Shown here in pieces: positions 38,006-50,996 of a stretch of 64,000 nt of DNA (its first letter is position 1; each line of letters starts with the position of its first letter). This DNA comes from Rhizobium sp. Q54 (GTDB taxonomy: Bacteria > Pseudomonadota > Alphaproteobacteria > UBA2966 > CAIVPW01). Below the pieces are notes generated by a model. It saw only the letters and a list, made by a program, of their open reading frames with translations. It did no database searches and was not told where the DNA came from. The position numbers and the translations under genes are program-made. The stretch covers positions 28,293 through 92,292 of the forward strand of contig CAMDPO010000001.1 of the NCBI GenBank assembly GCA_945904955.1, in the 5' to 3' direction.

Positions 38006-39628
38006 ATGCTGGCGAACAACACGGTTGGCGCCCCTTCCCTGCGCCTCGGCACCCCCCTTCGCACGGGCGTGGTCGCCCTGCTGGCCGCTACTACCGGCCT
38101 GACTGCGGTGCCTTCGCGTGCCGCCGATGTCGTCTCGCTCAGTTCGCTCACCTCGCATCGCGCCAACTACCGGCTGGCCATGGCGGACGTCGATCGGCGC
38201 ACCGGTATCCAGTCCATCGAGGCGGACTGCACATCGAGATGTAGCGTTCGTGCAGCGGCACGATCGAGACACAGCAATTTGCTGTGGACCCGGACCGGGT
38301 ACACCGACGGCCGCGTGCGCGAGGAACGCACCGCCGTCGGCCTCGATGAGAATCCGCGCACCCAGGCGATGAACTTCGAGACGCGCCGCACCCGCGATGC
38401 GCGCACAGAGGATTTGCCGGGCCGGCCGCAGCTCAATTTCGGCACGCGCTTGCCGGACGAGGCGCGCGTCGACACGTTCTCCGGCCGCGCCCAGCCGGCC
38501 ACCGGACGCAACGCCCGCGGCACCCAAGTGGCGTTCACCTCGCCCAATGGCTGGACGATGCCCATCCCCGCCGGGACAGTCTTCCCCGCCGAGTACACCC
38601 GTACCCTCGTCAACATGGGCGCCACCACGGAAGCCCAGCGCTCGATGCACCTCTTCGACGGCGCGTCGACCAACGGGCTGTATCGCGTGGTCGCCAAGAT
38701 GGTGGGCGCGGTGCCAAAGGACCAAGCGGTCCCCGAGGCCGGACGCACCGACCTCGGCGGCCGTACGTCGTGGCGCTATGAAGTCGAGCACTTCGCGCCG
38801 GGCGCGGCCGACGCCGCGCCGGAGTACACCGCCAACTACCAGATGTTCGACAACGGCGTGATCGGCGAATTGGCGCTCGACTACGGCACCTATCGCCTGG
38901 ACGGTGACCTGCGCAGCCTCGAGTTGCTGGCGGCGCCCGACTGCGGCCGTGGCCCGACAGTGCTCGCGACGGCTACGCCGCCGCGTGGCACTACGCTGCC
39001 CACTGGTCGCACGAGCGGGCCGACACCGCCGCAGATGACCGCCGGGACGGACAGTGGCGGCAACATCTTCGCGCGCACGGCCGCGGCATTCTTCGGAGGT
39101 GTCGAAGGTGCAAGCCTGGCCGCGGATGAGCCGAACGGGGAGGCGGTCGCGGAGTATGAAGAGCTCACGATCGACGACGAGCGCTGCCGGCGCGCGCGGC
39201 CCCACCCGAATTGCCAGGTCGATGCCGCCGAGCCGGCGGGCGTCGCTCAGACTGCCGGATTGCGGCCGCAGCCGCCGCAGCCGACCCCCGGCCCGGGACC
39301 AGGCAACCCAGCGCCGAATCCCAATCAGACCGCGGCCACCTCTCCTGCGCCGCCCGCACCGGCGGGCGGCGTCCGCATCACGGTGCAGCGCGGCACCGCT
39401 TTGCAGGGAGTGGCGCCCTCGACGAGGACGGAAACGACGGCCACCGCTACGGCGCGGGCCACTGTACCTGCGCCCACAACCACGACCGCGGCTGCGACCA
39501 CCAACGGAACTACGGCGGCGAGAGCGGCCACCACGGCCGCAGCTAGCGCGGCCGCAAGGGCGGCGGCGAATCTTAGCGGCTGGCGCGAGCGATCAGGTCG
39601 GAGTTTGGAGCGGACACCAGGGCGCTGA
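38006..39628 (+). CDS. secreted hypothetical protein, possibly EipB/DUF1849-like, with long Pro/Thr/Ala-rich C-terminal low-complexity region
   Basis: Signal peptide (ALLAATTGLTAVPSRAAD). The core of about 300 aa has two Cys (ADCTSRC ... APDCG) that could form a disulfide. The C-terminal 200 aa are PQPPQPTPGPGPGNPAPNP / TTTAAATTNGTTAARAATTAAASAAA. The 3' end overlaps the convergent deacetylase gene by about 55 nt. The family call is tentative. Confidence 0.4.
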   Translation: MLANNTVGAPSLRLGTPLRTGVVALLAATTGLTAVPSRAADVVSLSSLTSHRANYRLAMADVDRRTGIQSIEADCTSRCSVRAAARSRHSNLLWTRTGYTDGRVREERTAVGLDENPRTQAMNFETRRTRDARTEDLPGRPQLNFGTRLPDEARVDTFSGRAQPATGRNARGTQVAFTSPNGWTMPIPAGTVFPAEYTRTLVNMGATTEAQRSMHLFDGASTNGLYRVVAKMVGAVPKDQAVPEAGRTDLGGRTSWRYEVEHFAPGAADAAPEYTANYQMFDNGVIGELALDYGTYRLDGDLRSLELLAAPDCGRGPTVLATATPPRGTTLPTGRTSGPTPPQMTAGTDSGGNIFARTAAAFFGGVEGASLAADEPNGEAVAEYEELTIDDERCRRARPHPNCQVDAAEPAGVAQTAGLRPQPPQPTPGPGPGNPAPNPNQTAATSPAPPAPAGGVRITVQRGTALQGVAPSTRTETTATATARATVPAPTTTTAAATTNGTTAARAATTAAASAAARAAANLSGWRERSGRSLERTPGR

Positions 39629-40544
39629 CCGGAACGAGAACGAAGCCCCGTTCGGCAAGGGTCGGCAGCCATGCCTCGAGGGCAGCGAGCGTCGCGACCT
39701 TCGGATGCCCGATGGCAATGGCGCTACCATCGCGGCGCGCGACCGCTTCCAGCTCGCGCAGCCGAGCCCCGATGGCCTCGGCGGTCTCTTCGTTGTCGAG
39801 GAACACGTCGCGCGACAGGAACGGCACGCCGGCGGCACGGCTCGCCGCCCGGCCGACGGTGTGGCCGGTGGTGACCGAATCGAGGAACAGCAGGCCGCGG
39901 CGCGCGAGCGCGCGCATCAGCACGTCCATAGCGGCCCGGTCTGCGGTGAAGCGGCTGCCCATGTGGTTGTTGATGCCGACGACACCATCGATGCCCGCGA
40001 TGCGATCCAGCGCCCAGTCGATGCGGCGCTGCAACTCGGCACCCGTCTGGCCGAGCAACAGGACATTGATGCCGGGGTCGACGTCCCAGACCTCTGGCTC
40101 CATCGGCACATGCAGCATCAGCTCGTGGCCCCTGCCCCGCGCCGCCGCTGCCATGCCGGGAAGATCAGCGGCGTAGGTCATCAAAGACAGGGTGAGCGGA
40201 CCGGGCAGCGCGACCGCGCGGCGCGCGTTCGGCACATGGACCCCGACGTCGTCGATGACCACGGCGATACGCGGACGACCGTCGGGAATCGCGGCTACGG
40301 CCATCAAGGGAAACGCCGCAACGGCCCCAACCGGTTCCAATGCGGCCGGCGACTCAGCCGAGGGCGGCGGCACAATGTTGGCGGTGATGGCGACGCTCGC
40401 CGGCTCGGACGGCCGCGCCAGAGTCGCGATGCTGGCGCCGATGCCCGCGCCCATACCCACCGCAGAAAGACCTGCGACCACGATGGCAACCCAAACCGGT
40501 CGCCGCAGGGCACGCGAGACAACGCGAAGGGGACGGCGTCGCAC
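39573..40544 (-). CDS. divergent polysaccharide deacetylase family protein (YibQ-like)
   Basis: N-terminal TM anchor plus a domain with AVVIDDVG...LHVPMEP...INNHMGSRFT...LFLDSVTT motifs. Confidence 0.72.
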   Translation of the reverse strand: MRRRPLRVVSRALRRPVWVAIVVAGLSAVGMGAGIGASIATLARPSEPASVAITANIVPPPSAESPAALEPVGAVAAFPLMAVAAIPDGRPRIAVVIDDVGVHVPNARRAVALPGPLTLSLMTYAADLPGMAAAARGRGHELMLHVPMEPEVWDVDPGINVLLLGQTGAELQRRIDWALDRIAGIDGVVGINNHMGSRFTADRAAMDVLMRALARRGLLFLDSVTTGHTVGRAASRAAGVPFLSRDVFLDNEETAEAIGARLRELEAVARRDGSAIAIGHPKVATLAALEAWLPTLAERGFVLVPVSALVSAPNSDLIARASR

Positions 40545-45631: not shown

Positions 45632-45646
45632 GAACCAAACTAGAAC
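45632..45646. promoter_or_regulatory. alphaproteobacterial LexA box (GTTC-N7-GTTC direct repeat, here read as GAAC-N7-GAAC)
   Basis: GAACCAAACTAGAAC lies about 70 nt upstream of the lexA ATG. A second degenerate site GTTCTACCCCTGGTTC (N8 spacing) follows at about 45668-45683. Confidence 0.6.
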
Positions 45647-45716: not shown

Positions 45717-46415
45717 ATGTTGACCCGCAAGCAACACGAACTCCTTATGTTCATCAACGAACGGCTCTCGGCCTCGGGGGTTTCGCCCTCGTTCGACGAG
45801 ATGAAGGAGGCGCTCGGCCTGCGCTCCAAATCGGGCATCCACCGCCTGGTGACCGCCCTGGAGGAGCGCGGCTTCATCCGCCGCTTGGCGCACCGCGCCC
45901 GCGCCCTGGAAGTGCTCAAGCTGCCCGAGCAATCGGTGCCCAGTACCACCCCGGCCATCACGCGGGCCTCCGTCATTCGCCCCGATTTTGCCGGCCGCCG
46001 GCCGAGCCTGCCGCCGCCGTCGTCGACCGAGACGCGCACCCTGCCCCTCTACGGCCGCATCGCTGCCGGCACACCCATCGAGGCGCTGCGCGATCAGTCG
46101 AGCTTCGTCGAGGTGCCGACCACCCTGCTTGAAGGCGGCGAGCATTACGCCCTCGAAGTGTCGGGCGACTCGATGGTCGATGCCGGCATCTTTGACGGCG
46201 ACACGGTGATCATCCAGCGCACCGACGCGGCCGACAACGGCACCATCGTCGTGGCTCTCGTCGACAACGAGGAAGTCACCCTCAAGCGGCTGCGCCGCAA
46301 GGGCAACTCTGTCGCGCTCGAGTCGGCCAACGAAGCCTACGAGACCCGCATCTTCGGACCCGATCGCGTCCAAGTGCAGGGCAAGCTCGTCGGCCTCATG
46401 CGCAAGTACAACTAG
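45717..46415 (+). CDS. lexA: LexA repressor
   Basis: N-terminal winged HTH ([15 protein letters not shown]...[20 protein letters not shown]) and the S24 peptidase domain with catalytic Ser (GDSMVDAGI) and Lys (TLKRLRRKG). Confidence 0.92.
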
Positions 46416-46620
46416 CGGCGCTGGCGCTTCCTTCGCCGGCCGGCATACCCGATGGGTATGCGACGGGCACCGGCAACGTGGTGCAGAAGGTGGCCGAATA
46501 GGCGCCTGACGACGTCAACCCATGGCATAGGCCTTGCTTCGCTGCCGGCAGGACCCTCTGTCCGGTGCCGGCCATGCGTGCTCCTCCTCGTTGCGACTGC
46601 CGCGGCATCGGCCCCCGCGC

Positions 46621-48858
46621 ATGAACGCGTTTCCGGGCCGCACCGCGCTCGCCACCGCCACGGAATCGGCCGATCTGGAGGATGCGCTGCGCGCCGCCGC
46701 CGCCGCGCGCACCGAGCCCTGCCCCTACAAGGCCCTGCCCGACGACGCGCGCTGGGGAGCCGCCGGCTCGGCAATAATTGCCCAGCATGCGCCGCGCTTC
46801 CGCGTGTCGCGCACGACGCGCATCGCCACCGCCGGCAGCTGCTTCGCCCAACACTTCGGGCGCTGGCTGCAGGCCAACGGCTACGCCTACGTCATCGCGG
46901 AACCCGGCCCGCTTGCCCTCGATGCGGAGCAGCAACGCCTGCAAGGCTACGGCGTCTACTCGGCGCGCACCGGCAGTGTCTACACGCCGCGCCAGCTCGT
47001 GCAGCTATTCGACCGCGCCCACGGCGCCTTCGTCCCATCCGAGCACCCGTGGCCCCAGGGCGATGGCTTCGTCGATCCGTTCCGCCCGCGCGTGCAACCG
47101 CTGCCGTTTCCGTCCCTCGAAGCCCTCGCCGCGGATCGCGCCCAACACTTCGCCGCGGTGCGCGAAGCGTTCGCGACCTGCGAGCTGTTCGTCTTCACCC
47201 TCGGCCTGACCGAGGCGTGGCGCAGCCGCGCCGACGGCGCAGTATTCCCGACCTGCCCCGGCTGCGGCGCCGGCACCTTTGCCGCCGCCGACTACGAGTT
47301 CGTGAACTTCAGCGTCGAGGAGACGGAGGCCGACCTCGAGGCATTCGTCGCGCGTCTCGCCGGCGTCAATCCACGCGCCCGCGTGCTGCTCACGGTCTCC
47401 CCGGTTCCCCTCGTCGCGACCATGGCCGGCCGCCCGGCGCTGCAAAGCAGCGTGTACTCGAAGTCGGTTCTGCGCGTCGCTACCCAGCGCGTCCGCGATC
47501 GCCACGCCCACGTCGAATACTTTGCGTCCTACGAGATGGTGACGCACCCGTATCACACCCAGCCGGCCTTCGCCCCGGACCGCCGCACGGTGACGACCGC
47601 CACCGTCGCGCGGGTCATGCAGGCATTCGCGCAGCACTTCGTCTCGGACCATGCCGACGCCGCCGACCCGCCGCCGAACGTGGATGCCGGCGCCATCGCG
47701 CGCATCGAGGCCGCCAGCGACGGCGGGCGCGAACAATCGATCTGCGACGAAGTCGCCGCCTACGCCCTGCAGATGCCGGCGGACGAGCTGCTCGCGTCGC
47801 GCCCCTGGGAGCTCTACGCGGGCACCACCAGCACGGTGTATTGCCCCGCAGAATTCCGCGCTGCGACCGGACAGGTCGACAAGACTCTGTATCCGCCCAT
47901 CGGCTACGAGTTGCGCGCCCACGCCGCCGTGACCTCGTGGCTCGACGCCGTTGGTGCCAGTGCCGGCGACGGAATCACCCTGTGCCTCGGCGGCTCCACG
48001 ACCGCGCGCAGCAGCAACTGGCCCTTCCATCTGCATCGCCTGCTCGGCGCTGGGCCGGTGCTCAACCTAGGCGCCAACGGCTCAGTCGCCGCGTTCGATC
48101 GCCGCATTCTGGCGGCCGTCGCCGAGCCCCTGATCCAACGCGGCATCCCGATCCGTCGTGCCATTCACCTGGTCGGCTACAACGACGTCCACGCCCGCCT
48201 GGTTTCCCTTGCCCGCTTCGCGCGCGGCGAGCAGCCGGACTATGCGAGCGACCACGACTGCGCCGGCATTGTCGGCCTTGTGGCGCCGCCGCGACCGCGT
48301 CTCGGGCACAGCGTGCGGCGGCCGCGCAATGACGACGAAGATCTCTCCCTGTTCCTGCCGGGCGCCGCCTGGGAGCATCACCTGACCCGCATGGTGACTG
48401 CCGCGATCGACGGGGTCGGCGCCGAAGCCTCCCGCCTTGGCATTCCCTTCACCACGGTCCTGCAGCCGATCGCCACGGATCTCTTCTATCCGCTGTACGG
48501 GCGAGTCATGCGCTCGCTGTTCGAGCACGCTGCCGGCGCCGATGTCGCTCCACCGGTGGCCCGCCTGCCCGGCGAATCATTCCTCGCCTGGCGCCGGCGC
48601 AATCATTTCTCGCGCTGTGCCGGCGAGAATGCCGCGATGGCCAAGGCCGCCACCCTGGGCTACGACCTCGACGTCGATGGGATTTACCAAGGGCTCGTCG
48701 ACCACTTCCGCGAGCGCGAGCACGCGGGCTACGTCGACTTGTCGATGGCCTGCATCTACCGCGAGTCGCCGCAGTTCCTCTTCAAGTGGGATGCCTGCCA
48801 CTACAGCCCGGCGGGCGCGGCCATCGTCGCCGACGAAATCCGAAGAGCGCTGCGCTAG
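46621..48858 (+). CDS. two-domain protein: N-terminal GSCFA-family domain fused to a C-terminal SGNH/GDSL-type hydrolase-like domain
   Basis: The literal GSCFA motif (RIATAGSCFAQHFGRWL) is near the N-terminus. The C-terminal half carries SGNH blocks I (ITLCLGGSTT), II (NLGANGS), III (VGYNDV) and V (WDACHYSPAG). Start taken at MNAFPGRT (46621), with an alternative at 46534. Confidence 0.6.
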   Translation: MNAFPGRTALATATESADLEDALRAAAAARTEPCPYKALPDDARWGAAGSAIIAQHAPRFRVSRTTRIATAGSCFAQHFGRWLQANGYAYVIAEPGPLALDAEQQRLQGYGVYSARTGSVYTPRQLVQLFDRAHGAFVPSEHPWPQGDGFVDPFRPRVQPLPFPSLEALAADRAQHFAAVREAFATCELFVFTLGLTEAWRSRADGAVFPTCPGCGAGTFAAADYEFVNFSVEETEADLEAFVARLAGVNPRARVLLTVSPVPLVATMAGRPALQSSVYSKSVLRVATQRVRDRHAHVEYFASYEMVTHPYHTQPAFAPDRRTVTTATVARVMQAFAQHFVSDHADAADPPPNVDAGAIARIEAASDGGREQSICDEVAAYALQMPADELLASRPWELYAGTTSTVYCPAEFRAATGQVDKTLYPPIGYELRAHAAVTSWLDAVGASAGDGITLCLGGSTTARSSNWPFHLHRLLGAGPVLNLGANGSVAAFDRRILAAVAEPLIQRGIPIRRAIHLVGYNDVHARLVSLARFARGEQPDYASDHDCAGIVGLVAPPRPRLGHSVRRPRNDDEDLSLFLPGAAWEHHLTRMVTAAIDGVGAEASRLGIPFTTVLQPIATDLFYPLYGRVMRSLFEHAAGADVAPPVARLPGESFLAWRRRNHFSRCAGENAAMAKAATLGYDLDVDGIYQGLVDHFREREHAGYVDLSMACIYRESPQFLFKWDACHYSPAGAAIVADEIRRALR

Positions 48859-50996
48859 GTTCCGCTCCGCGGTAGGACCCACGGACGCGCGCCGCGCGTT
48901 TGCGCGACGGACTGCACGCGGACGTCGCCGCCGCTGATCCACACGGCGTGCGCGCCGGATCGCCACATGTCCAGGCGATCGAGGACGACGGGCGCGCCAC
49001 AACGGACAAAGACCGCCACGGCCGCGACGACCACGTCCGCCGCACGACAATCCTCGGCCAGCGCCTCCTCGTGCTGCACCAGCGCGACCGTGACGCCGTC
49101 GGTGCGATAGAGGCAGCCAGTGCCGTCGCAACGCAGCCGGCCGTCGCCAGTGGCGTTGCCCGAGGCCGGCCAACGCCCGCCGCTCTCGCGGCCATCGCGG
49201 CGCAGCCAGGTGTCCACCGTGAAGTTGGAACGCGCAGACGAGACCCACAGGCCGCCGTCGGCGGCGCGCACCGCGAGATATGCCGCGTCCTCGCTCACCA
49301 GCACGTCCGGACGTGCGACCAGGACCGTGCTGAATAGGCCGAGCGCCAGCACAGGAATACCCACCAGACGCCAACGCGTCTGCCACAGGCAGAGCCACAG
49401 TCCAGAAATGGTAACCAGCGCGAGCCCGGCGACCGGCATCGCCGGCAGCGTGATGGCGGCGCCCGGCCACTCGGCGACCGCCTTGCCGATCGCCAGCATC
49501 CAATCGATGCCCCAACCCATCGGGTGCAGGGCCATCCATTCGAGACCGAGCGGCATCAAGGCAAATGCGGCGACCGCCCACGGCATGATCCACAGGCCAG
49601 TGATCGGCACGGCGACGAGGTTGGCGGCGAGCGAGTAGGTCGAGAACCGGTCGAAGTGGTAGAGCGCGAACGGCGCCGTGGCGAGACCGGCGACCAATGT
49701 CGAAAGCCCGACGCCGAACAGGTACAGCGCTGCCTTGCGCACGAACCCGGCGTTGCGTCCCCAGCGCGCGAACACCTCACGCGCGAGCTCATAGGCCGCG
49801 ATCAGTGCGACGACGGCCGCGAACGACATCTGGAAGCTCGGGCCGAGCAAGCTGTGCGGAGCGACGAGCAGCACTGCTGCCGCGGCCCACGCGACGAGCC
49901 GCATCGAGAACGGCCGCCGGTCGAGCAGAATCGCCACCATCGCAAGTCCGAGCATCAGGAACGAGCGCTCGGTCGGCGCGTTGGCTCCGGCCAGCAGGAA
50001 GTACCCGAAGCACCCGAGCAGCGCGACCGCCGCTGCCCACTTCTTGATGGGAAAGCGCAAGGCGACGGGCTCGATCGCCGCCAATGCCGCGCGGGTGATG
50101 AAGAACAGAATGCCGGCGAGCAGGCCGAAATGGAGGCCAGAAATCGAGATGATATGGGCGAGACCGGAGTCGCGTAGCGCCGCCCACGTCTTGTCGTCGA
50201 TGCCGGCGCGCTCGCCAGTCGTCAGGGCGGAGGCTACCGCACCAGTTTGTCCGTCGAGAACGGCATGAATGCGTTGGGACAGACCGTGGCGTACCGCCGC
50301 GATCGAGTCGCCCCAGCCAGGGTCGGCCGGCTCGAGCACGGTCGCGGCGGTGACTGCATAGCCGACCGCGCCGATGCGCTCGAACCAGGCTTGGCGCGCG
50401 AAGTCGAACGCGCCGGGCGCCGCCGGGGGCGACGGCGGCAAGAGGACTGCGCGCAGGCTGACGCGTTGGCTCGGCGCAATCGCCGCGCCGCGCGCGCGCA
50501 CCGTCACGCGAATGCGCGCCGGCGTTGCGTCTTGTTCGAGGCCGCTGATGACGACATCGGCCAGCGTAAGGCGCCGATCGTCGGGACGTTGCTCGACGAG
50601 TACCACGCGACCGGTGACAGCGACCGGTCCGATCTCGCGCGGCACCACGGGAGCGGCGACCATCGCCGTGCGAACCTGAGCGGCCGCGAACCCCAGGCCG
50701 CTGACGGCGAGGACGAGCGCGAGCAGCATTCCGCCGGTGCGGGCGCGTAACGCGAATCCGATGGCGATCGCGAGGGCCACCCAGGTCGGACCCAGCCACA
50801 GCGAAGGCTCGAATCGCAGCGCGAAGTAGACGACCACGCCCAGGCCCAGTGCGACCGGGAGCCACAGAGCCCATCGCTCGCGCTCAGCGAGGAAGATGGC
50901 GACGACGCGACGCCACGCCGCCGCTGCGATCAGCGGGCGCGCGGCGGCCGGCGCATCACGCTCCAGGTGCATCGCCCCTCCTCGCGCGAGGCGCAA
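48855..50996 (-). CDS. comEC: ComEC/Rec2 family competence membrane protein
   Basis: 713 aa, multi-pass membrane competence domain (ISGLHFGLLAGILFF) and a C-terminal metallo-beta-lactamase-like region. An alternative start is at 50972. Confidence 0.82.
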   Translation of the reverse strand: MRLARGGAMHLERDAPAAARPLIAAAAWRRVVAIFLAERERWALWLPVALGLGVVVYFALRFEPSLWLGPTWVALAIAIGFALRARTGGMLLALVLAVSGLGFAAAQVRTAMVAAPVVPREIGPVAVTGRVVLVEQRPDDRRLTLADVVISGLEQDATPARIRVTVRARGAAIAPSQRVSLRAVLLPPSPPAAPGAFDFARQAWFERIGAVGYAVTAATVLEPADPGWGDSIAAVRHGLSQRIHAVLDGQTGAVASALTTGERAGIDDKTWAALRDSGLAHIISISGLHFGLLAGILFFITRAALAAIEPVALRFPIKKWAAAVALLGCFGYFLLAGANAPTERSFLMLGLAMVAILLDRRPFSMRLVAWAAAAVLLVAPHSLLGPSFQMSFAAVVALIAAYELAREVFARWGRNAGFVRKAALYLFGVGLSTLVAGLATAPFALYHFDRFSTYSLAANLVAVPITGLWIMPWAVAAFALMPLGLEWMALHPMGWGIDWMLAIGKAVAEWPGAAITLPAMPVAGLALVTISGLWLCLWQTRWRLVGIPVLALGLFSTVLVARPDVLVSEDAAYLAVRAADGGLWVSSARSNFTVDTWLRRDGRESGGRWPASGNATGDGRLRCDGTGCLYRTDGVTVALVQHEEALAEDCRAADVVVAAVAVFVRCGAPVVLDRLDMWRSGAHAVWISGGDVRVQSVAQTRGARPWVLPRSGT

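What the first reader, a model, noticed from the sequence alone, without database searches (positions are those of the whole stretch)
46621..48858. Large GSCFA + SGNH-hydrolase fusion protein between lexA and comEC
This 745-aa ORF carries the literal GSCFA motif (ATAGSCFAQHFGRWL) in an N-terminal domain of about 330 aa. The GSCFA family has no characterised function. Its C-terminal 400 aa show the SGNH/GDSL blocks I (LGGSTT), II (GANGS), III (GYNDV) and V (DACHYSP). The two halves together suggest a tandem esterase/acyl-transferase-like enzyme of unknown substrate. lexA and comEC are direct neighbours in most alphaproteobacteria, so this gene looks like a lineage-specific insertion. GC3 is host-like, so it is not a recent transfer.
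Basis: partly seen in the sequence, partly recalled or inferred. Interest (0 to 1): 0.6.

Follow-up and report, generated by a model that had tools for sequence, protein, structure and literature searches.

The report
Two-domain GSCFA–SGNH acyl-transfer enzyme
A 745-residue, probably cytoplasmic protein inserted between lexA and comEC in one small alphaproteobacterial lineage joins a poorly understood 'GSCFA' domain to a second, rare esterase-type (SGNH) domain. It most likely adds or removes acyl groups on sugars, as a fused form of a two-protein O-acetylation system first described in 2025.

Summary
ORF 46621..48858 (+) encodes 745 aa. Residues 67-336 match Pfam GSCFA (E 9e-46). The C-terminal half has no Pfam hit, but it carries all four SGNH blocks. 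S459, D724 and H727 are conserved in 96-100% of its relatives.

The GSCFA half keeps Ser73, Cys74 and Asp320 but lacks the block-V histidine. That position is Thr323, and it is never His in 120 clade members.

The N-half is 41% identical to PipG of Pseudomonas entomophila. PipG works with a separate SGNH protein, PipF, in an O-acetylation step. Other clade members are fused to the CoA-binding WcbI domain (87 of the 120 best hits).

Full-length relatives are rare (about 12) and lie in modified-sugar or glycan gene clusters.

None of 80 alphaproteobacterial lexA loci carries this gene; lexA and comEC abut in most. One sister lineage has the gene at the same site, with dN/dS 0.22.

Verdict: a real, functional, rare fusion. 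It is a new variant of a known kind and of moderate interest.

The parts
46621..48858 (+). Whole gene, 745 aa, GSCFA-SGNH fusion protein; its stop codon overlaps the comEC stop (CTAG at 48855-48858)
46819..47628 (+). GSCFA domain (res 67-336, Pfam PF08885), SGNH fold by model
46834..46848 (+). G72-S73-C74-F75-A76 motif (block I equivalent; Ser73 and Cys74 conserved)
   Evidence: 119/120 clade members, the other being a gap; S73A costs 4.0 bits against the Pfam model
47578..47589 (+). D320-R321-R322-T323: block V equivalent with Thr where the family model expects His
   Evidence: D320 and R322 in 120/120; position 323 is S/T/N/A/E/D, never H; T323H gains 3.4 bits, and no other single His substitution tested gains more than 1.1
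47743..47751 (+). C375-D376-E377, part of a conserved '[IV]CDEE' tail motif of this GSCFA clade
   Evidence: C[DE][DE] found 15-46 residues after the end of the GSCFA alignment in 119/120 clade proteins, whatever their architecture; a C-E-D is also present near the C-terminus of PipG
47803..48855 (+). C-terminal SGNH-fold domain (about res 395-745), a rare subfamily with no Pfam hit for this protein
47989..48003 (+). Block I G457-G-S459-T-T (predicted nucleophile Ser459)
   Evidence: G457 105/106, S459 106/106
48064..48072 (+). Block II N482-L-G484
   Evidence: N482 106/108; G484 81/108, with Ala in 23
48175..48186 (+). Block III G519-Y-N521-D522
   Evidence: G519 102/103, N521 74/103, D522 95/103
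48790..48801 (+). Block V D724-A-C-H727 (predicted Asp/His of the triad)
   Evidence: D724 96/99, H727 99/99; read directly
46519..46620 (+). Conserved non-coding stretch directly upstream of the start codon (presumed own promoter or leader)
   Evidence: Far better conserved with L090 than the stretch directly after the lexA stop, by eye from the alignment; a 1-nt indel excludes coding; no consensus sigma-70 site; no significant RNA structure, z -0.15
45717..46415 (+). lexA, upstream neighbour on the same strand, 205 bp before the gene
48855..50996 (-). comEC, convergent downstream neighbour

Best explanation
The gene encodes a soluble, probably cytoplasmic two-module acyl-transfer enzyme. It most likely O-acetylates (or otherwise O-acylates) a hydroxyl group of a sugar, glycan or similar metabolite. 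Module 1 (about res 30-385) is a PipG-type GSCFA domain. It has an SGNH fold and conserved Ser73-Cys74, Asp320, Arg322 and a Cys375-Asp-Glu tail, but it has no block-V histidine. Module 2 (about res 395-745) is a complete SGNH catalytic domain with Ser459 as nucleophile, His727/Asp724 as base, and Gly484/Asn521 as oxyanion hole. I propose that module 2 forms an acyl-Ser459 intermediate. The two modules then pass the acyl group to an acceptor held by module 1, possibly through the conserved cysteines. On this reading the protein is a single-chain version of the PipG+PipF pair. What is shown: the folds, the residue conservation, the fusion patterns, the gene neighbourhoods, purifying selection and the insertion. 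What is inferred: the reaction, the donor, the acceptor, and the direction (transfer rather than hydrolysis).
Against: There is no biochemical evidence for this protein or for any full-length relative. The C-half shows no detectable sequence similarity to PipF or to the small Methylocystis partner, so the parallel with PipFG is an analogy of architecture and not orthology. No PipD homologue was found. Most characterised SGNH enzymes are hydrolases. In this genome the gene has no glycan-pathway neighbours within the 64-kb window, so the substrate is unknown. The PipG study could not define the chemistry either. The relative orientation of the two active sites was not modelled.
Confidence: 0.5

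Rival explanations
1. It is a hydrolase. One or both SGNH domains remove O-acyl groups (a de-O-acetylase or esterase) from a sugar, glycan fragment or lipid in the cytoplasm, and no transfer occurs.
Against: The homologous PipG is needed to make, not to remove, an O-acetyl group (PMC12828459). Relatives lie in biosynthetic clusters. Related domains are fused to donor-handling modules: WcbI, adenylation plus carrier protein, and carbamoyltransferase.
Confidence: 0.25
2. Only the C-terminal SGNH domain is catalytic. The His-less GSCFA half is a non-enzymatic substrate-binding or scaffold module, as the OSK SGNH-fold domain is for RNA.
For: Position 323 is never His in 120 clade members, and the Pfam model prefers His there. 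OSK shows that SGNH folds can lose catalysis (PMC9487903).
Against: Ser73 and Cys74 are present in 119/120 clade members, the other being a gap. Asp320, Arg322, Glu198 and Lys281 are present in 120/120. That pattern is typical of an active site. PipG C47A abolishes product formation.
Confidence: 0.15
3. It is a peptide- or natural-product-processing hydrolase like CgnD, the SGNH-type enzyme that removes the leader peptide in crocagin biosynthesis.
Against: Sequence identity is only 12%. No precursor peptide or RiPP genes lie here or near relatives. Contexts are sugar-modification clusters.
Confidence: 0.05
4. It is a decaying or functionless insertion that happens to keep an open frame.
For: It is an isolated gene in a housekeeping region. 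It has no consensus promoter. It evolves faster than its neighbours: 84% identity against 90-100%.
Against: dN/dS is 0.22 in both halves. All catalytic motifs are intact. The upstream region is conserved. The identical protein occurs in independent assemblies.
Confidence: 0.05

Closest known systems
PipG (GSCFA) + PipF (SGNH-type) + PipD of Pseudomonas entomophila, terminal O-acetylation of pseudotetraivprolide (PMC12828459)
   Same: The N-half is 41% identical to PipG (E 6e-55). It shares the NPY..LP..W lead-in, AGSCFAQH, TLGLTEAW, TVSPVPL and x-R-R-x-V-T motifs and a Cys-acidic tail. In both cases a GSCFA module is paired with an SGNH module that has a full Ser/Asp/His triad.
   Different: Here the two modules are one polypeptide, with GSCFA first. 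The C-half is about 350 aa and is not detectably similar in sequence to the 240-aa PipF. No PipD was found. There is no NRPS/PKS context; relatives lie in sugar-modification clusters.
WcbI-GSCFA fusion proteins (Burkholderia, Sinorhizobium and others) and WcbI of the B. pseudomallei capsule (PMC4104973)
   Same: They carry the same GSCFA clade, 44-54% identical. That clade again has no block-V His and has the VCDEE tail. The GSCFA domain is again coupled to a second module linked to acetyl transfer.
   Different: The partner there is the helical CoA-binding WcbI domain (PF18588), placed N-terminal to GSCFA. Here the partner is an SGNH domain placed C-terminal, and no WcbI domain is detected.
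SGNH O-acetyltransferases and esterases of glycans (PatB, OatA C-domain, AlgX, Ape1, CE2/CE3 esterases; review PMC9487903)
   Same: Same fold for both halves. The C-half has the Ser-His-Asp triad and blocks I, II, III and V, which predicts a covalent acyl-serine mechanism.
   Different: Those enzymes are extracytoplasmic. This protein has no signal peptide or membrane segment. It is a tandem of two SGNH folds, and the window protein does not reach Pfam thresholds for any GDSL model.
CgnD (PDB 8a2n), SGNH-type hydrolase of crocagin biosynthesis
   Different: 12% identity. CgnD acts on a RiPP precursor, and no such context exists here.

Membership tests
GSCFA family (Pfam PF08885) | Match to the family HMM above the gathering score | tested here: met
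   156.9 bits against a cut-off of 25; profile positions 1-237 of 237 covered
GSCFA family (Pfam PF08885) | Conserved N-terminal G-S-C-F-A motif | tested here: met
   G72-S73-C74-F75-A76; present in 119/120 clade members, the other being a gap
GSCFA family (Pfam PF08885) | SGNH-type fold (the family belongs to clan CL0264, PMC9487903) | tested here: met
GSCFA family (Pfam PF08885) | Block-V D-x-x-H histidine, as preferred by the family model | tested here: not met
   Thr323 occupies that position. T323H raises the HMM score by 3.4 bits, while no other single His substitution tested adds more than 1.1. The position is never His in 120 clade members. This is a feature of the clade and does not exclude membership.
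SGNH hydrolase superfamily (C-terminal half) | Block I G-x-S nucleophile | tested here: met
   G457-G-S459; S459 in 106/106
SGNH hydrolase superfamily (C-terminal half) | Block II Gly and block III G-x-N-D (oxyanion hole) | tested here: met
   N482-L-G484 and G519-Y-N521-D522. N521 is Asn in 74/103 relatives and Thr in 8.
SGNH hydrolase superfamily (C-terminal half) | Block V D-x-x-H | tested here: met
   D724-A-C-H727; D724 96/99, H727 99/99
SGNH hydrolase superfamily (C-terminal half) | Three-layer alpha/beta/alpha SGNH fold | tested here: met
SGNH hydrolase superfamily (C-terminal half) | Significant match to a curated GDSL/SGNH sequence model | tested here: inconclusive
   No Pfam or NCBIfam hit for the window protein. 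Of the 12 relatives, 3 match Lipase_GDSL (best E 1.7e-4) and 2 match Lipase_GDSL_2 (best E 5.3e-3). The profile against PDB gives only weak SGNH hits (E 0.019-0.9).
PipG/PipF-type two-component O-acetyltransferase | PipG-like GSCFA component | tested here: met
   41% identity over 311 aa, E 6e-55
PipG/PipF-type two-component O-acetyltransferase | PipF-like SGNH component, homologous in sequence | tested here: not met
   BLASTP E >= 5.5; hhalign probability 0.3%. The fold class and triad layout are the same, but homology was not shown.
PipG/PipF-type two-component O-acetyltransferase | PipD-like third component | tested here: not met
   tblastn of PipD against the window and the relatives' loci gave nothing below E 0.1. 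The rest of the genome could not be searched.
PipG/PipF-type two-component O-acetyltransferase | O-acetyltransferase activity | not testable with these tools
   Needs biochemistry or genetics
WcbI-GSCFA fusion proteins | WcbI domain (PF18588) | tested here: not met
   No PF18588 match in the window protein or in any of its 12 full-length relatives, even at E<=10

The most novel reading that the evidence does not exclude
The His-less proteobacterial GSCFA domain (Ser-Cys motif plus a VCDEE tail) is one half of an obligate two-module O-acyltransferase. It always needs a second acyl-handling module: a fused WcbI domain, an adjacent small PipF-like SGNH protein, or the fused large SGNH domain seen here. 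If so, this ORF is the natural single-chain form. A GSCFA protein would also be the 'unidentified partner' that WcbI was proposed in 2013 to need for capsule acetylation in Burkholderia pseudomallei.
Probability: 0.3. Interest if true: 0.65.

Novelty: new variant of a known kind. Interest (0 to 1): 0.45.

Why it matters
A 2022 review listed GSCFA (PF08885) among the five SGNH families with no known activity and no solved structure. The first functional clue, from 2025, is genetic and is not understood mechanistically. A natural fusion of a GSCFA domain to a complete SGNH catalytic domain offers a single-polypeptide system in which that chemistry could be reconstituted. Two other patterns point the same way: the widespread WcbI-GSCFA fusions, and small SGNH genes that overlap or abut stand-alone GSCFA genes. 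Together they suggest a general rule, that GSCFA works with an acyl-handling partner. That rule would make WcbI's proposed missing partner in Burkholderia capsule acetylation directly testable. The C-terminal domain also defines a rare SGNH subfamily that no Pfam model captures. For the biology of this organism the finding is minor: one accessory gene dropped into a frequently used insertion site.

Tried and rejected
1. A word-indexed homology search with the C-half alone returned nothing, not even the protein itself. This is a limit of candidate selection. The exhaustive profile search replaced it.
2. hhalign of the N-half against the C-half gave no similarity (probability 0.5%). The tandem is therefore not a recent internal duplication.
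3. PipF against the C-half, by BLASTP and hhalign, and the Methylocystis 256-aa partner against the C-half profile, gave no similarity.
4. The GSCFA profile against PDB sequences gave only chance hits, consistent with no solved GSCFA structure.
5. The Foldseek afdb50 library was unavailable.
6. A search for insertion scars found only short, chance-level repeats, with no flanking direct or inverted repeats. No tRNA or mobile-element gene lies adjacent.
7. The promoter/terminator scan found no sigma-70 site and no terminator between lexA and the gene.
8. The LexA box GTTC-N7-GTTC occurs only upstream of lexA. There is therefore no direct evidence that the gene is under SOS control, although read-through from lexA cannot be excluded.
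9. The RNA fold of the conserved upstream 116 nt is no better than shuffles (z -0.15). Rfam found nothing in the whole window.
10. PADLOC and PHROGS were not searched. Nothing pointed to defence or phage.

Full report
**Observation.** The window contains an ORF at 46621..48858 (+) of 745 aa. The longest possible frame starts at TTG 46534 and gives 774 aa. Pfam places GSCFA (PF08885) on residues 67-336 with E 9.3e-46 and finds nothing in the C-terminal 400 residues. NCBIfam finds nothing at all. The upstream gene is lexA and the convergent downstream gene is comEC. The stop codons of the ORF and comEC overlap as CTAG. The identical protein is called on four contigs; the three places shown come from two ENA assemblies and one Logan assembly. 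A 1-nt indel in the sister locus within 46534-46620 argues for the ATG start.

**The C-terminal half.** Twelve homologues cover both halves. In them G457, S459, G519, D724 and H727 are invariant, and N482, G484 and D522 are nearly so. An exhaustive profile search of 1.84 billion cluster representatives found only 128 relatives at E<=1e-3, and 59 at 1e-10, so the domain family is rare. Across those relatives the SGNH residues hold:
- S459 in 106/106
- G457 in 105/106
- N482 in 106/108
- G519 in 102/103
- N521 in 74/103
- D724 in 96/99
- H727 in 99/99

The GSCFA half has one important deviation. By position in the fold, D320-R-R-T323 sits where block V (D-x-x-H) lies. I used the Pfam model as an oracle. 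T323H raises the score by 3.4 bits, and five neighbouring His substitutions plus R331H change it by -3.1 to +1.1. D320A and S73A cost 4.7 and 4.0 bits. In 120 clade members S73 and C74 are present in 119/120 (the other is a gap), D320 and R322 are invariant, and position 323 is S/T/N/A/E/D and never His. A '[IV]CDEE' motif follows the domain in 119 of 120. In the window protein it is C375-D-E.

**Links to known biology.** Of the 120 best hits to the whole protein, 87 are fusions of the CoA-binding WcbI domain (PF18588) to this GSCFA clade. Others are fused to methyl-, sulfo-, glycosyl- or acyl-transferases, and WcbI lies N-terminal in these fusions. WcbI binds acetyl-CoA but was inactive alone, and was proposed to need an unidentified partner (PMC4104973).

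A 2025 study of the Pseudomonas entomophila pip cluster gives the closest functional parallel (PMC12828459):
- The GSCFA protein PipG, the adjacent protein PipF and PipD are all required for a terminal O-acetylation.
- A pipG deletion is complemented only by pipFG.
- PipF Ser18 and His211 and PipG Cys47 matter. PipF's proposed triad is Ser18/Asp208/His211, and its best BLAST and FoldSeek matches are SGNH esterases.

The window N-half is 41% identical to PipG (E 6e-55). The C-half is not detectably similar to PipF, and no PipD was found.

Two stand-alone GSCFA genes (one from a Methylocystis MAG, one from a JGI metagenome contig) are each preceded by a roughly 255-aa gene that overlaps or abuts them. 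The Methylocystis one carries GHSH, GGNE and DASH motifs and a weak Lipase_GDSL_2 match. In the cases examined, this His-less GSCFA clade thus comes with a second module: WcbI, a small SGNH protein, or the large SGNH domain seen here.

**Context of relatives.** The C-domain family also occurs in other architectures:
- TPR + GSCFA + C-domain
- carbamoyltransferase + C-domain
- adenylation + carrier protein + C-domain
- C-domain + TPR
- stand-alone proteins of about 340 aa

Full-length relatives sit among nucleotidyltransferases, epimerases, C- and O-methyltransferases, radical SAM enzymes, carbamoyl- and sulfotransferases and TPR-GT41 glycosyltransferases. These are clusters for heavily modified sugars or protein glycans. 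The protein has no signal peptide or membrane segment.

**The insertion.** I fetched 80 alphaproteobacterial lexA loci. In 67 of them comEC lies convergently downstream, and in 40 the gap is 150 bp or less. None carries the GSCFA gene. The nearest genome, a MAG labelled Rhizobium sp. Q54, has LexA 97%, MoeA 73% and ComEC 74% identical. In it only 13 bp separate the two stop codons.

A sister contig (LexA 100%, MoeA 98%, ComEC 90%) has the orthologue, 84% identical, at the same site. dN/dS is 0.22 overall, and 0.215 and 0.20 for the two halves, against 0.08-0.10 for moeA and comEC. GC3 and codon usage are host-like. No scars, repeats or mobile genes flank the gene. Eight other loci carry unrelated single genes in the same gap, so it is a recurrent insertion point. 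Those genes include TPR-GT41, glnS, cytochrome b561, GFA and an ECF sigma factor.

The rest of the window is housekeeping: ntrBC/YX, pdh, eno, pyrG, trp, moa, lpx and bamA. It offers no functional partner.

**Interpretation.** The best-supported reading is a cytoplasmic two-module O-acyl(acetyl)transferase that acts on a sugar or glycan. It would be a single-chain analogue of PipG+PipF. The C-terminal SGNH triad would do the covalent chemistry, and the His-less GSCFA module would supply acceptor binding, a cysteine relay, or both. The folds, conservation, fusion patterns, contexts, selection and insertion are shown. The reaction, the donor, the acceptor and the direction are inferred.

The main rival is simple esterase activity. 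The lesser rivals are an inert GSCFA scaffold, a CgnD-like peptide hydrolase, and a decaying gene.

**Novelty.** GSCFA and SGNH are known families. The GSCFA-SGNH fusion, the rare C-domain subfamily and the clade-wide loss of the block-V His are not described in the papers I could search. I rate this as a new variant of a known kind with moderate interest. Its main value is as a Rosetta-stone clue to how GSCFA domains work, and possibly to the identity of WcbI's partner.

Noticed in passing
window 45632-45646: This is the only GTTC-N7-GTTC match in the 64-kb window (GTTCTAGTTTGGTTC, minus strand). It lies just upstream of lexA, as expected for an autoregulated alphaproteobacterial SOS box. There is none in front of the GSCFA-SGNH gene.
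   Followed up: partly
window 48855-48858: The stop codons of the GSCFA-SGNH gene (TAG) and of convergent comEC (CTA on the + strand) overlap as CTAG. The insertion therefore left no intergenic space or terminator between the two genes.
   Followed up: no
window 46519-46620 and L090 about 2090-2193: About 100 nt directly upstream of the start codon are far better conserved between the window and the sister contig than the roughly 100 nt just after lexA, by eye from the alignment. A 1-nt indel rules out coding. There is no consensus promoter, no Rfam hit and no significant fold.
   Followed up: partly
window 46444-46460: A perfect 7-bp palindrome with a 3-nt loop (CATACCC GAT GGGTATG) lies 29 nt after the lexA stop. 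It is not conserved in L090 and no T-run follows it.
   Followed up: no
proteins P0001-P0120; window 47743-47751: A '[IV][IV]CDEE[AE][IL]' motif lies 15-46 residues after the end of the GSCFA alignment in 119 of 120 members of this clade. In WcbI-GSCFA proteins it is usually at the extreme C-terminus. A C-E-D is also present near the C-terminus of PipG. It could be a flexible cysteine-bearing tail involved in acyl relay. No paper I read describes it.
   Followed up: partly
one search hit list (for example P0048, P0061 and P0068 from Burkholderia; P0089 from Sinorhizobium fredii): Of the 120 best hits, 87 are WcbI(PF18588)-GSCFA fusions. WcbI of the B. pseudomallei capsule locus was reported to bind CoA but to need an unidentified partner. 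The fusion pattern nominates a GSCFA protein as that partner.
   Followed up: partly
L095 5234-6004 and 6001-7242; L096 5234-6001 and 6001-7254: Two stand-alone GSCFA genes (one from a Methylocystis MAG, one from a JGI metagenome contig) are each preceded by a roughly 255-aa gene that overlaps or abuts them and has no Pfam hit above threshold. The Methylocystis one has SGNH-like motifs (GHSH, GGNE, DASH). The arrangement echoes pipF-pipG. GDP-heptose pathway and sulfate-activation genes lie nearby in L095.
   Followed up: partly
L006 8702-10945; L026, L015, L046, L066, L053 (gap between lexA and comEC): The lexA-comEC gap holds unrelated single genes in other alphaproteobacteria, so it is a recurrent insertion point. 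The genes are a TPR-GT41 glycosyltransferase (L006), glnS (L026), an Rv2525c-like glycoside-hydrolase-like protein (L015), cytochrome b561 (L046), a GFA-family protein (L066) and an ECF sigma factor (L053).
   Followed up: yes
window vs L090: Synonymous divergence between the window and the sister contig is uneven. dS is 0.12-0.15 for moeA and lexA, but 0.43 for the inserted gene and 0.57 for comEC. This suggests a recombination boundary near the lexA/insert junction.
   Followed up: no
P0003, P0005, P0006, P0121: Some full-length relatives carry an N-terminal extension of about 100 aa or more. In P0121 it matches TPR models. P0009 carries a third, N-terminal Lipase_GDSL_2-like domain. TPR-GT41 glycosyltransferase genes lie directly upstream of P0006, and a TPR protein with a weak GT9 match lies upstream of P0003. 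This hints at a protein (possibly flagellin) glycan as target.
   Followed up: partly
Apart from one MAG labelled Rhizobium sp. Q54 (LexA 97%, but MoeA and ComEC only 73-74%), the best LexA matches are 61-72% identical and come mostly from Rhodospirillales-type MAGs. The organism belongs to a poorly sampled lineage, and its assignment to Hyphomicrobiales is uncertain.
   Followed up: partly
window 39576-40544 (-) and about 38006-39628 (+): A divergent polysaccharide deacetylase (PF04748) and an EipB-like protein lie about 6-8 kb upstream of the finding. They are the only envelope- or glycan-related accessory genes near it, and no link to the finding was established.
   Followed up: no
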